Origin: Octopus sinensis
Taxonomy: Eukaryota
DNA: 64,000 nt
Assembly: GCF_006345805.1 (NCBI RefSeq)
Contig: NC_042997.1
Span: 106,392,001 to 106,456,000 of the forward strand
Reading direction: 5' to 3'
Below the pieces are notes generated by a model. The model worked only from the letters and a program-made list of their open reading frames with translations, did not search any database and was not told the DNA's origin. This document shows positions 1,488 through 43,310 of this stretch, piece by piece; within the stretch, counting starts at the first letter, position 1, and every line of letters begins with the position of its first letter. The position numbers and the translations under genes were made by a program.

Positions 1488-1885
1488 TATATTATATTAA
1501 ATTAGAGATAAAACCACTATTAGGCAAATCAAACAATGAAAAACATAAGCCAATACATAAAATTAATTAATTTATATTATTTTAAATATATCGAAGATTG
1601 ACTGTAACCATAACTCGAATTATTACGAATTGTACAGTCATGAAACGATCGTAGTGTTTTACTCTTAATCTTTTATTAAACTTTTAATATTTTTGATATA
1701 TTTAAAATAATATAAATTAATTAATTTTATGTATTGGCTTATGTTTTTCATTGTTTGATTTGCCTAATAGTGGTTTTATCTCTAATTTAATATAATATAA
1801 TATAATATTTTACTATAAAATTGGATTTAATCCTAAATCTGATTTTTCCCTGTAAGTTTGGATTTATTCTCTAATATTTTATTAT
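1488..1885 (+). mobile_element. Penelope-like pLTR remnant with a 105-bp inverted repeat and a truncated hammerhead
   Basis: Arms 1488-1592 and 1695-1799 are reverse complements. 1593-1885 matches 42906-43310. Spacer reads GAAGA..tgactgta/tacagtca..GAAACGATCGTA. Flanked by (TA)n. Confidence 0.75.
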
Positions 1886-2477
1886 ATATATGTATATATA
1901 TAATTATGTATATATATATATATATATGTATATATATATATGTATATATATAATTATATATATATATCGATGTATATATATATATATGTATATATATATG
2001 TATATATATATATATATATATATATATATATCTGTGTATATATATATATATATATATATATATAAAAGACAGGATGTGTGTGTGTGCGCGCGCGCTGTGT
2101 ACGTGAATGTAGTTTATACACATCCACAAATTAGCACACATGTCGCTCAAATTTTAGGAGGACATTCGTCACGATCCTAGCTGTATTTTCGTCAAATTTC
2201 TTTCACCCGAGGCACCAGCGAATAGCTGTAAAAATCGATTTTCATCTATAACTTTTACCAATTTTCACGTCGGTGAAATCCGGCGTTTGCTAACATTAGT
2301 TAAGTCCCCTGCAATGGCGGCTATTATACAGAAAAAACAAAGATAAACTATTTCGTTTTTGGATTTAGTTTGCAAGATTCTTTATGTGAGTTCGTGTTGT
2401 CTGAAAGAAATATATATATAAGCAATAATAAATCTCTGAACGAGATGTAAACAGTAAGCGCTCAACAACGTAAATTA

Positions 2478-2891
2478 TACTAGCCATCTCAATAAGGCTA
2501 ACCACTAGGGGTGGGTGTTACTGTAGCTCTTTAGCCCCAGGAGATCATCGTCTCCAGCTGGCCTTAGACACAATTTCTGTGCCCTTATGATATTTGCAAA
2601 GGGAGGTCATCCCCTCTTGTAAACCTAAATGAAAAACACTAAATAGATATTCGCAAACAGGTCTCTCCTCATCGAAAACCCGTGATTACCGTGTGTTGAC
2701 AAGAGACAATAATCTCGAAACTCCAGTCCACGCGTATCACTTAAGTTTACGAGAGGGGATGATCTCCCTTTGCAAATATCATAAGGGCACAGAAATTGTG
2801 TCTAAAGCCAGCTGGAGACGATGATCTCCTGGGGCTAAAAACCTACAGTAACACCCACCCCCAGTGGTTAGCCATATTGAGATGGCTAGTA
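2478..2891. repeat. Fold-back element with about 155-bp inverted arms (hammerhead in spacer)
   Basis: 2478-2632 is the reverse complement of 2737-2891 with few mismatches. Confidence 0.85.
2690..2734 (+). ncRNA. Degenerate type I hammerhead ribozyme
   Basis: Stem I cgtgtg/cacgcg; core TTGACAA (two changes from CTGACGA); stem II gaga/tctc; GAAAC-tcca-GTC cleavage site. Confidence 0.65.
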
Positions 2892-3479
2892 ATATATATA
2901 TAGTTTTAATTATACAGGAAAACAAAGATGAACCGCTCTGAAAGAAATGTATATACAGTATACATATAGTATATATTTAATTTTTCTATATATTTCATTT
3001 TAAATGAAATTTTGAATGTTAGATAATTAATGTTGGTTTATTCAATTAGAAAACAAAAACCTAATGACGATGTAATTAGCAATTAGCACATTTCGTTTCT
3101 TAATTTCTGTTTGTTTTAATATTTAAATTCTTTATTTGACTGTTATTTTCAGCCATAGCTTACTTATTTCTGTTTATGAAATTCTCTGTACGTACTTTTG
3201 CTTTCTTGGCGATCGAAGCAAATCGATGACTTCGTGCTATAGCCGTTTTTCTTCCTATGTGATTTAAAGCATTTTTTGTTATGTGGCATTTCAAAATTAG
3301 AAGCGAGTTCTGAACATGCTATTCAAGTTCGCTGAAACTTATCTCCTGCCGCTCAAAATTACAACTCAAATGGGATAAAGCGTACACGCATCACAACCAC
3401 ATTTATTGTGTGTTTGTGTGTGCATGTGTGTGTAGACTTACAATATATCCCATTGTTAAGAAAATTTTACATAATCATT

Positions 3480-39722: not shown

Positions 39723-39724
39723 CG

Positions 39725-42700
39725 AGGTTAACATAATTAAAATGGCTAGGAAATCGTTTATAAAATATAAAAATAAATAATGGGCTAGGAAAGATACTAG
39801 CGAATTTTTTATATACCTATGGGAGCACCTGATTCTGCACAAGCTACGGATTTAGTAGGTATTTATCTTTTATCTGAACTCCAATTAGAAAATTTAAAAA
39901 TAGAGGGTGGTTTATATAGGGATGACCTTCTACTAATTACTAAGAATTGCACTAATAGGAACCTAGATGTATATAAGAAAAAACTTTATAGTTTCTTCTT
40001 TAAAAGATATGGTTTAAGTATTACTATATATAATGAGAATTTTAATGTTAATTATTTAGATGCTAATTTTAATCTAATTACGGGTAAACCACAACCATAT
40101 CATAAACTTAATGAGAACCTTAGATATATAAATGTTAATAGTAATCACCCACCATCAATTAAAAAATCGTTGATTAATAATATAAGTAAACGTATAACAT
40201 TACATTCTTATGATTTAGAGATTTTTAATAAACATGCTCCTTATTACAATGAGGCCCTTAGAGAGGCAGGTTATAATAGTAATATTAAATTTTTTTTATT
40301 AAAAATAAAGATAAAACTTTTAATAATAGTGATAAAAATATTAATAATAATTATAATAATTTTGTTAGTAATATTGGTAATAATCTTAGACATTATAAAA
40401 ATAAAAATAATATAAATAAAAATAAGAATAAAAATAAAAATAATAACTTTAATAATTCTTTAAATGTTAATTATAAATTTAAATCTAATAATAATAATAA
40501 TAATAATAATAATAATAATAATAATATGATAAAGAAATATAATAATAATAATGGTAACAATAATAATGACAGTTTTAATATTAATAAGAAGAAAAATAAG
40601 AATAAAATTTGGTTAATAGTTCCTTATGGTGCTCAAGTTGAAAAGAACATGGTTAAAGAGATTTTAGATATTATTAAACTATTTATTCGAGATAATCGTA
40701 AATATAAAAACATATTCTCTAGTAATAATTTTGGAGAAGGTTATTCTACCACTAATAGTGTAAGTAACATTATTTCTTCTTTTAACAAATTTGAGCTGAA
40801 TAATTTTTATAAAAATAAATTATATAATAATACCAATAATAAAAAAGATAATACACTAATTAACTGTACATGTAGAGATAAAACTAAATGCAACTTAAAT
40901 AATAAATGTGATATTAACGATGTAGTGTATAAATGTATAGTTACATTACATGATGAGAATAATAAAAATAATAATAACTCAAACGCGATATATATAGGGT
41001 ATACTTCGTCTACAATAAAATTAAGAATCGCACAGCATATGCATTTATTTAAAAATAAAAACTTAATTTACTCCACTGGACTTAGCAAGTACATTTGGGG
41101 ACTGAAATCCCAAAATATTAATTATGATTTATCTTAGGAAATAATTAGTAAGGCTAAATCATATAGTATAGGAGGGAACTTTTGTTATTTATGTTCAAAT
41201 TAGTTTAAGGAAATTTTATTTTATAAGCATGATAATTTAGTAAATACCTGGGATGAGCGCAAAATAAAATGCAGAGAGAAGTTACTTTACTTATATAATA
41301 AATTTCTTGATAAATAATGAATATTTCTTAGCCTTAATTAGCTCCGTATTTGTTGATTTATGTAATAGTATTCTAAATATAGCAGGTGATTTGTAGTACT
41401 TATTATATTAGTTTATTTTAGTTATTTAGGTTCCGTTTTTAATTATAATTAGATTATATATAGTTATTTATTTTATTACTAAATATCTTATTACTAAATA
41501 TATTTTTTAATAAATATTTAATGGTTTATTGAATATAGAGTTTGGTAAGTTACAATTTTATTTATCTTATAATAAAGTCAAGTTTATATATTTTGTTATA
41601 TTTCTGTTATAATTTTGTTAAATTATAATTTTGTTATATTAATCTATTTGTATGTAATCTCTTTATATTTGAAATAGATGTATTTAGTTGTTTATTTAAT
41701 CTATTTTATTTAATATAGAAGTATAGATTAGTAAGATTAAATATTTAGATTAAACTTAATGTTTACCTCAATTTTTGTATTGTAGTATGTCCATGTATGT
41801 ATGTGTGTGCATATGTGTATGTGTGTATATGTGTGTATATATGTGTATATATGTATATGTATGTATGTGTGTATGTATGTGTATATATATATATGTATGT
41901 ATATATATATATATATATATATATATATATATATATATATATATATATATATATATATGTATATTTATATTTATATATATATGTATACGTATGTATAGTT
42001 ATACTGCAAATTTTGATAACTATTTTAGAGTTTTGGTTATGATCACTAATCTTAGCTTATAATTATAAGAGAATGGGGAAAGACTTTATAGTACGATGAG
42101 TGGTTACTATAAAAAAATGTTTATATATTTATTTATCATATAAGATTTTTAGAATATATTTAATAATTAGTGGTTTTTAATCAATTAAATTATTTAATTT
42201 ATTTTGTGTTAAGTATTATTTATCATAGTTATTTTATTAATAAATCTTATAGTATAGAGTGATTTTATTCTTTATTTGTGACTTCATTCTATTTACACTG
42301 ATAAACCATTAATGTTCCCATTCACAATCTTCATTGATAAAGCGTATTTGTTCCTCACGCTTAATGAATTCTTCAACAATTTATTCTTTTTTGCTAATAA
42401 CGTAATTCCACGAGTATTCTTATAAACGCTGTAAAGATGTTTTCCGATTCAAAATTTTAGTTCATTACAAAACCTAGCTGAGGTAAGTATTTATTTATAT
42501 TTAAGATCTTTCAATTGTAAATTTTTATATTATATAAGTCTTTGGTGTAATAATATTTTCCTTATGTAAATATCGTTGTTTATGTAATGATCTAATTATC
42601 GTATATATGTGCATATATATTCATTTATGAAGGGGTTTTTTTAGATCTTAATTATAAAATACATTTATATATTTATGTAATTAGTTATAGACTATTACCG

Positions 42701-43310
42701 ATATTAGATTATTGGTGGGTTTCCTACCTTATAAATTAAAATTAATATTTAACATTATAATCGATTTTCATATAATCATAATTGTTAAGTTTTAAGTTTC
42801 TAGTTTGATAATAGAGTTTTCTATAAGTAAAGTTATTATATTATTTATATCTTTAAAAAATTGTTTAAATATTTCTGATTATTTTTAAAATATTTCAATT
42901 AACCTGAAGATTGACTGTAACCATAACACGAATTATTAATTGAATTTAAATTATTGTTATTCGAATTGGTACAGCCATGAAACGATCGTAGTGTTTTACT
43001 CTTTATCTTTTATTAAACTTTTAATACTTTTGATATATAAATATAAAATATACATACATATATATATATATATTTGTATATATATATAAAATTTATAAGT
43101 TTAAATTATTTAAATAATTTTTAATTTTTAACTTTTATATTTTTAAATTAATTTTATGTATTGGCTTATGTTTTTCACTGTTTGATTTGCCTAATAGTGG
43201 TTTTATCTCTAATTTAATATAATATAATATAATATATTTATACTATAAAATTGGATTTGATCCTAAATCTAATTTTCCCCGTAAGTTTGGATTTATTCCC
43301 TAATATTATT
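39725..43310 (+). mobile_element. Decayed Penelope-like retroelement (RT + GIY-YIG endonuclease + pLTR)
   Basis: RT motifs MGAPDS, GLYRDD, VNYLD, SNHPPSI; Cys-rich linker CTCRDKTKC..C; VVYKCIV...IYIGYTSSTIKLRIAQH (GIY-YIG); 3' hammerhead-bearing end. Confidence 0.88.
42900..42996 (+). ncRNA. Hammerhead motif in the 3' pLTR of a Penelope-like element
   Basis: CTGAAGA at 42904-42910; stem II tgactgta..tacagcca; GAAAC-GATC-GTA (palindromic minimal stem III). Stem I is weak. Confidence 0.55.

What the first reader, a model, noticed from the sequence alone, without database searches (positions are those of the whole stretch)
1488..43310. Recurrent hammerhead ribozyme modules from several unrelated families, often inside fold-back repeats beside (TA)n tracts
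Seen: at least five type I hammerhead motifs (1593-1653 truncated, 2690-2734, 11432-11497, 20726-20796, 42904-42990). Apart from the 1.6 kb and 42.9 kb pair, they share no sequence beyond the core. Three lie in 290-410-bp modules whose 105-155-bp arms are inverted repeats, and most abut (TA)n. One family links directly to the 3' end of a Penelope RT/GIY-YIG element. Known: Penelope-like elements carry minimal type I hammerheads with short palindromic stem III in their pLTRs and form inverted termini. Inference: this genome holds several ORF-less, ribozyme-bearing hairpin mini-elements (retrozyme-like), mobilised by Penelope proteins and favouring TA repeats. They could yield self-cleaved, circular or dsRNA species next to innate immunity genes.
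Basis: partly seen in the sequence, partly recalled or inferred. Interest (0 to 1): 0.75.

Follow-up and report, generated by a model that had tools for sequence, protein, structure and literature searches.

The report
Penelope ends and two-armed retrozyme insertions
The hammerhead motifs are real and belong to four repeat families, one being the end of an ordinary protein-coding Penelope-like jumping gene and three being small protein-free repeats whose back-to-back insertions were likely written by a Penelope-type enzyme, which would make a long-suspected partnership testable.

Summary
All five motifs exist and fall into four unrelated, genome-wide families. Family A (1.6 and 42.9 kb) is the terminal repeat of a 4.8-4.9 kb Hydra-type Penelope-like element (RT plus GIY-YIG); 17 of 20 endonuclease loci carry it downstream. 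Families B, C and D are ORF-less, circularly permuted 357-532 bp units of the non-LTR retrozyme kind, with compensatory changes between subfamilies (including C3-G8 to U3-A8). The fold-backs are not fixed hairpin elements: each is a second, variably 5'-truncated copy inserted head-to-head (62 of 135 insertions). The two arms end at two different fixed sites (42 versus 2), the Penelope 'tail' signature; about 10-bp target duplications occur in 7 of 10 two-armed and 0 of 15 one-armed scorable copies; 3' ends abut TA runs in 43 of 79 (background 5.5%). Arms reach 4.7 units and share alleles. Likely mechanism: priming from both nicked target strands on one RNA source, possibly a circle. No RNA evidence was obtained, no partner enzyme identified, and nothing ties these to the Toll-like receptor genes. 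The scan reported the same pattern before on other DNA of this and other genomes.

The parts
1488..1592 (-). Family A: inverted, 5'-truncated copy of the element's 3' end, ending at the short end site, against a TA run
1593..1878 (+). Family A: forward arm, truncated inside the hammerhead core (C3 lost, predicted inactive), ending at the long (tail) site against a TA run
2420..2632 (-). Family C: inverted arm, unit positions 253 to 41; carries the tail
2631..2891 (+). Family C: forward arm of the 357-bp unit (positions 292 to 195), TA runs outside both arms
2690..2734 (+). Family C hammerhead, U3-A8 core, GUC site, predicted cut after 2728; stem III palindrome broken by one change in this copy
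11399..11727 (+). Family B: one-armed, 5'-truncated copy of the ~475-bp unit, ending at the long site against a long TA run
11435..11495 (+). Family B hammerhead, intact core and three stems, AUA site, predicted cut after 11489
20221..20688 (-). Family D: inverted arm, unit positions 497 to 29; complementary to the 3' half of the hammerhead
20695..20865 (+). Family D: forward arm of the ~532-bp unit; ends short of both usual end sites
20726..20796 (+). Family D hammerhead motif, GUU site, weak stem II; predicted not to fold in this copy
39724..41378 (+). Family A coding remnant: 5'-truncated, frameshifted RT, Asn-rich linker and GIY-YIG endonuclease of Hydra type
41379..42903 (+). Family A AT-rich untranslated region with an internal TA run and an internal deletion relative to other copies
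42904..42990 (+). Family A hammerhead core to GUA site; long stem II with U-U at its base, 2-bp stem I, palindromic stem III
42991..43335 (+). Family A 3' end with tail, ending in a TA run

Best explanation
The five motifs are hammerhead ribozyme sequences of four repeat families: one is the terminal repeat of a protein-coding Hydra-type Penelope-like element, and three are ORF-less 357-532 bp retrozyme-type units that were likely inserted by a Penelope-type reverse transcriptase/endonuclease. Shown: unit structure, variable 5' truncation, two fixed 3' end sites, head-to-head second arm, TA-run preference, target duplications, more-than-unit arms, shared alleles between arms. Inferred: the endonuclease nicks both strands of an AT-rich target about 10 bp apart; each nick primes reverse transcription, one at the short site and one at the long (tail) site, on RNA from one source; the two cDNAs join head-to-head, often through a few overlapping bases; if only one priming succeeds a one-armed copy without target duplication results. 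The RT reads through the hammerhead cut site, so the template is uncut or re-ligated there (a circle or an uncleaved multimer). The hammerheads would release monomers, probably as dimers through the palindromic stem III; most genomic copies are dead ends.
For: A: HHR downstream of the endonuclease in 17 of 20 loci chosen by endonuclease; two HHR-to-HHR units of 4825 and 4893 bp around RT and EN; Hydra motifs. B-D: natural HHR-to-HHR units of 475, 357 and 532 bp onto which all sampled copies map as permuted segments; longest Met-started frame 25-54 aa. Covariation: B plus sister subfamily, 98.4% of 375 cells paired, 4 of 15 pairs changed on both sides; C plus sister, 95.5% of 156 cells, 3 of 12 pairs, and C3-G8 versus U3-A8 between subfamilies. 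135 insertions: 62 two-armed, 60 with an arm longer than one unit, maximum 4.7 units; of 44 two-armed copies with both ends at a known site, 42 use one short and one long site, 2 the same site (p 1e-10). Target duplication >=8 bp in 7 of 10 two-armed, 0 of 15 one-armed copies, control rate 5%. 3' ends next to TA runs in 43 of 79 B/C/D copies (background 5.5%) and 27 of 27 in the young C subfamily. Arms closer to each other than to other insertions in 33 of 48 (Wilcoxon p 9e-6); a 12:12 polymorphism is concordant between arms in 7 of 7 (p 0.008); 3 locus-private variants are present in every pass of both arms. 5' ends within 5 nt of the cut site: 2 of 197, expected 5.1. PMC11167929 shows a PLE protein cutting and extending both strands from two internal start sites.
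Against: No RNA evidence of any kind. No autonomous element with sequence similarity to B, C or D was found among three PLE families examined, so the mobilising enzyme is inferred from footprints only. All 7 target duplications are in family C, 2 of them TA-like, and only 25 of 79 copies could be scored; 4 more scorable copies added little. 18 of 62 two-armed copies have at least one end at neither site. In the young subfamily alone the arm-similarity test is not significant (6 of 13, p 0.30). Shared alleles could also come from one active source locus, or from gene conversion. Samples are the best 30 matches to hammerhead-containing queries, so they are biased towards young, hammerhead-bearing copies. 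Covariation rests on two subfamilies per family, i.e. few independent events; none was tested for A or D by pair counting.
Confidence: 0.75

Rival explanations
1. Same families, but the template is a linear, uncleaved multimeric transcript from a genomic array, and the inverted arm arises by fold-back or template switching (self-priming as proposed for rotifer Penelope) rather than by priming from both target nicks on a circle.
For: No circle shown; arrays of up to 4.7 units exist in the genome and could be transcribed; PMC3846280 proposes self-priming; hammerhead mutants do not affect insertion in vitro (PMC11167929).
Against: In sub-unit insertions such as the window's C copy the inverted arm contains tail sequence (positions 196-253) absent from the forward arm, so it cannot be a copy of it; arms end at complementary sites 42:2; target duplications go with two arms. 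A linear multimer as template is not excluded by any of this.
Confidence: 0.3
2. B, C and D are only truncated terminal repeats of autonomous Penelope-like elements that I did not sample, as A is.
For: Known PLEs leave many solitary truncated ends and opposite-strand hammerhead pairs 100-700 bp apart (PMC4209133); my samples are biased to best matches.
Against: Sequence downstream of the hammerhead runs seamlessly back into sequence upstream of it with no coding frame, over up to 4.7 laps; no similarity to A or to two other PLE families. An origin from such repeats in the past remains likely.
Confidence: 0.1
3. Fixed hairpin mini-elements (MITE-like), the inverted arms being part of the mobile unit.
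For: 46% of sampled insertions (62 of 135) have inverted termini, some with target duplications.
Against: Junctions and arm lengths differ in nearly every copy and 73 of 135 have no second arm.
Confidence: 0.03
4. The modules are host-retained regulators of the Toll-like receptor cluster through cleaved, circular or double-stranded RNA.
For: Proximity only: LRR-TIR genes lie in the window, one starting about 1.9 kb after the A element.
Against: The families are genome-wide; three of five window motifs are truncated or decayed. Enrichment near immune genes was not tested.
Confidence: 0.04

Closest known systems
Hydra-clade Penelope-like elements (Craig et al. 2021, PMC8557442; section 11 and passages read; supplement table rows seen list Hydra-1_Obim, 2507 bp, (TA)n)
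   Same: Family A: C-terminal GIY-YIG, DKT, CxCX5C linker, CxxC and CxH motifs, hammerhead in the terminal repeat, TA targets, inverted 5'-truncated copy with a tail at one end only.
   Different: 4.8-4.9 kb instead of under 3 kb, with a long AT-rich untranslated region and an Asn-rich linker; KWK in place of RWK; tail about 93 bp rather than 30-40 bp. Not compared by sequence with the catalogued family.
Metazoan non-LTR retrozymes (Cervera and de la Pena 2020, PMC7229834, passages and Discussion read; Li et al. bioRxiv 10.64898/2026.07.22.740005, parts 1-3 of 5 read)
   Same: ORF-less, low-GC (32-42%) monomers of 353-532 bp, one type I hammerhead per unit, tandem and dispersed copies, proposed PLE mobilisation.
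   Different: Here most copies are short dispersed insertions with PLE footprints (two end sites, inverted arm, TA targets, about 10-bp duplications); 'inverted' and 'target site' do not occur in the main text of PMC7229834 and not in this sense in the preprint. Expression as circles is shown there, untested here.
Minimal PLE hammerheads (Cervera and De la Pena 2014, PMC4209133; parts 1-2 of 4 read)
   Same: Short palindromic helix III, U3-A8 core variant, 2-bp helix I variant, opposite-strand pairs 100-700 bp apart.
   Different: B has a longer, 4-5 bp stem III; B-D sit in self-contained units rather than at ends of coding elements.
Non-autonomous Chlamys elements such as MRC1 (PMC8557442, passage read)
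   Same: Non-autonomous PLE derivatives with multicopy head-to-tail insertions.
   Different: Those resemble autonomous partners at their 3' ends; no such partner was found here.

Membership tests
Type I hammerhead ribozyme | Catalytic core with a 3-8 pair, GAAA and NUH site | tested here: met
   Core intact in 29 of 30 A, 29 of 30 B, 25 of 30 D; C has U3-A8 in 24 of 30, the other 6 were read one base off register. Window 1.6 kb copy lacks C3.
Type I hammerhead ribozyme | Three helices supported by covariation | tested here: met
   B; C: (two subfamilies each).
Type I hammerhead ribozyme | Helices in families A and D | tested here: inconclusive
   A: stem I 2-3 bp, U-U or A-U at base of stem II; D: GUU site, helices not favoured in folding; no pair counts made.
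Type I hammerhead ribozyme | Self-cleavage | not testable with these tools
   Needs in vitro assay.
Hydra-clade PLE (family A) | RT plus C-terminal GIY-YIG with DKT, CxCX5C, CxxC and CxH motifs | tested here: met
   Translations against the description; Pfam gave no hit for the window fragments.
Hydra-clade PLE (family A) | RWK motif | tested here: inconclusive
   KWK at the equivalent place.
Hydra-clade PLE (family A) | Generally under 3 kb | tested here: not met
   Units of 4825 and 4893 bp; a general trait in the paper, not a strict criterion.
Hydra-clade PLE (family A) | Hammerhead in terminal repeat; (TA)n targets; tail | tested here: met
   17 of 20; TA at 17 of 30 3' ends and two end sites 93 bp apart.
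Hydra-clade PLE (family A) | Placement in the clade by RT phylogeny | not tested
   No tree built.
Non-LTR retrozyme (B, C, D) | Non-coding monomer of a few hundred bases with one type I hammerhead | tested here: met
Non-LTR retrozyme (B, C, D) | Head-to-tail copies with at least two hammerheads | tested here: met
   Natural dimers in each family; up to 4.7 units in the young C subfamily. The window copies themselves are sub-unit.
Non-LTR retrozyme (B, C, D) | Expressed as monomeric linear and circular RNA | not testable with these tools
   Only assembled contigs of runs not on record as RNA were offered.
MITE-like fixed hairpin element | Fixed terminal inverted repeats shared by copies | tested here: not met

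The most novel reading that the evidence does not exclude
A Penelope-type RT/endonuclease, acting as a dimer, copies one circular retrozyme RNA from both nicked target strands at two fixed start sites and runs several laps, so two-armed insertions are direct genomic records of both retrozyme hijacking of PLE proteins and the unexplained origin of PLE inverted termini; the near-identical young C subfamily would be a live substrate for testing it.
Probability: 0.4. Interest if true: 0.7.

Novelty: new variant of a known kind. Interest (0 to 1): 0.5.

Why it matters
PLE mobilisation of animal retrozymes has been argued from co-occurrence and phylogeny (PMC7229834; bioRxiv 10.64898/2026.07.22.740005), and how PLEs form tandem and inverted insertions is named as open in PMC8557442. 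Here unrelated non-coding units carry the full PLE footprint in countable numbers, giving specific predictions (two start sites, both strands, one source RNA) and a young subfamily to test them on. The components themselves are known, and this scan has already described the same anatomy at several other loci, so the gain is supporting evidence, not a new system.

Tried and rejected
Rfam scan of the window was swamped by microsatellite matches; the Hammerhead_1 model found 7 other loci genome-wide from 74 scored candidates, none of families A-D. Sequencing runs: no RNA holder listed. Contigs of 4 runs laid on a B stretch cover most of it in organisms A, B and C but cannot show strand, ends or circles. 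The second lay covered only part of a C-subfamily copy plus flank, because I chose the interval wrongly, and is uninformative. A C3-A8 core seen in one copy suggested rescue by A-to-I editing; rejected because 39 of 46 cores in that subfamily are canonical C3-G8. A first stem I structure for B was out of register and was corrected. Partner search: two further PLE families (a young Hydra-type with a 717-aa frame, and relatives of the 29.7-kb remnant; 30 loci each) share no terminal sequence with B-D; 3 of 60 loci gave hits: independent B and C-like insertions in two, and one weak match (E 7e-4). Short look-alike words between tails were not above shuffles, and folding showed no obvious shared tail structure (by eye). 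A first TA test was distorted by alignment overshoot and replaced. Copy numbers from 400 kb (1-2 insertions per family) give only wide ranges, about 200 to 50,000 per family. Duplicate views of one insertion were dropped before counts: 11 of 90 B/C/D loci, 4 of 60 sister-subfamily loci. Searches for a paper on cephalopod retrozymes and on retrozyme or Penelope insertion anatomy listed none describing this; the library lacks most subscription journals, and preprint supplements were closed.
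Full report
Setting. The window is G000:C1:106392001-106456000 of a 2.72-Gb eukaryotic assembly, rich in microsatellites, with LRR-TIR (Toll-like receptor) frames and retroelement remnants. Earlier scan notes call the genome octopus; I did not determine this.

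Observation. A descriptor finds two of them, against a mean of 0.13 hits (maximum 2) in 60 shuffles; the others are truncated or weak. Each belongs to a dispersed family, and the four families (A: 1.6 and 42.9 kb; B: 11.4; C: 2.7; D: 20.7) are unrelated by local alignment against shuffles. In 399,900 bases taken at arbitrary places there were 6 descriptor hits and 1-2 insertions of each family, so the window is not a special cluster as far as this small sample shows.

Family A. A degenerate RT, Asn-rich linker and GIY-YIG domain lies at 39.7-41.4 kb. Of 20 loci chosen by the endonuclease DNA, 17 have the A hammerhead downstream on the same strand. Two loci hold a hammerhead on each side of the coding region, 4825 and 4893 bp apart. 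The protein has DKT, CxCX5C, CxxC and CxH motifs and KWK for RWK, as described for Hydra-clade PLEs, almost all of which insert in (TA)n (PMC8557442); a Hydra family from an octopus is listed in that paper's supplement, not compared here. Copies are 5'-truncated at scattered places and end mostly at two sites 93 bp apart. The 1.6-kb module is an inverted short-end arm joined to a forward long-end arm cut inside the core. A is thus an ordinary PLE end, not a mini-element. Its hammerhead has a 2-3 bp stem I; a 2-bp helix I is also reported for Drosophila virilis Penelope (PMC4209133).

Families B, C, D. Natural dimers define units of 475, 357 and 532 bp, and all sampled copies map on them as circularly permuted segments. 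Sister subfamilies give units of 473 and 353 bp; the longest Met-started frame in any unit is 54 aa. Between subfamilies the helices are kept by compensatory changes (B: 98.4% of 375 cells paired, 4 of 15 pairs changed on both sides; C: 95.5% of 156, 3 of 12), and the 3-8 core pair switches from C-G to U-A, a variant already published (PMC4209133). These are few independent events. The 353-bp subfamily is very young: 40 matches at 100% over about 230 bases. D is older, has a GUU site and folds poorly; that GUU cleaves less well than GUC is recalled, not tested.

The fold-backs. Among 135 distinct insertions of the five (sub)families, 62 have an inverted second arm, 60 have an arm longer than one unit (up to 4.7), and 5' ends are scattered, with no pile-up at the cut site (2 of 197, expected 5.1). 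Each family has two 3' end sites, 44-104 bp apart; of 44 two-armed copies with both ends at a site, 42 use one of each and 2 the same; 18 have an end elsewhere. This matches the PLE arrangement of an inverted 5'-truncated copy with a tail at one end (PMC8557442; PMC3846280), and the tail has been tied to two internal RT start sites of a protein that cuts and extends both strands (PMC11167929). Junction gaps cluster near zero, often with small overlaps. Of 79 B/C/D copies 25 had non-microsatellite flanks; duplications of 8 bp or more flank 7 of 10 two-armed and 0 of 15 one-armed copies (control 5%), all in family C. 3' ends abut TA runs in 43 of 79 against 5.5% background, truncated 5' ends in 10 of 44, and in 27 of 27 young copies.

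One source for both arms. Arms are closer to each other than to the median other insertion in 33 of 48 cases (p 9e-6; not significant in the young subfamily alone). A 12:12 polymorphism is concordant across arms in 7 of 7 (p 0.008) and three private variants are in every pass of both arms, while 108 private variants are single-pass, most of the excess from one locus with an older unit. This fits one circular template, one multimeric template, or one active source locus; it does not choose among them.

Mechanism. Shown: anatomy, end sites, targets, duplications, covariation. Inferred: PLE protein in trans, priming from both nicks, read-through of an uncut or ligated hammerhead site, dimeric cleavage. 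Not shown: transcription, cleavage, circles, the partner enzyme (three PLE families examined, none similar). In the window only B keeps an intact core and all three stems; C has one change in stem III; D's antisense arm is predicted to block folding.

Comparison and verdict. A is a Hydra-type PLE with an unusually long untranslated region. B-D meet the sequence criteria of non-LTR retrozymes (PMC7229834; bioRxiv 10.64898/2026.07.22.740005), whose PLE dependence is proposed there and in PMC7761336 (passages); the two-armed footprint is not described in the parts I read nor found by searches. Earlier scan notes reach the same reading for other loci; I looked them up after searches had established the anatomy, and they are not independent support. 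Real, mostly known parts, useful mechanistic evidence: interest 0.5.

Noticed in passing
window 29508-30446: Another two-armed PLE insertion with a GIY-YIG remnant, set in trinucleotide runs; both arms stop just before the U3-A8 minimal hammerhead seen in about a dozen of 30 relatives.
   Followed up: partly
L263-L292 (e.g. L271): A very abundant young Hydra-type family with an open 717-aa frame and 150 of 150 scored matches at 92% identity or more; its hammerhead-like motif has a non-canonical first core bases and it ends in TA runs. Candidate mobilising enzyme, untested.
   Followed up: partly
L233-L262: Very young 353-bp subfamily of C with canonical core; all 14 one-armed copies end at the short site, all 13 two-armed copies use both sites.
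   Followed up: yes
window 40289-40800: Asn-rich in-frame linker between RT and endonuclease, recalling the Asn-rich inserts of rotifer Penelope (PMC3846280 passage).
   Followed up: no
window 13915-14807, 25513-27803, 45175-47436; L139:7431-9689: Tandem Toll-like receptor paralogues, one full 753-aa frame, others partial or frameshifted; another copy lies just beyond the window.
   Followed up: no
window 63872-64000: Start of a further 5'-truncated family A coding copy continuing past the window, without a downstream hammerhead.
   Followed up: partly
L196-L202; L175, L176, L194: Further hammerhead families in this genome, some with canonical folds, inverted arms or a 431-bp tandem spacing.
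   Followed up: no
window 37916-39700: A second GIY-YIG-like remnant overlapping the edge of an LTR-retrotransposon RT remnant, into which the family A element abuts.
   Followed up: no
window 18668-19486: About 170-bp terminal inverted repeats (70% alike) around unrelated sequence; probably a non-autonomous DNA transposon.
   Followed up: no
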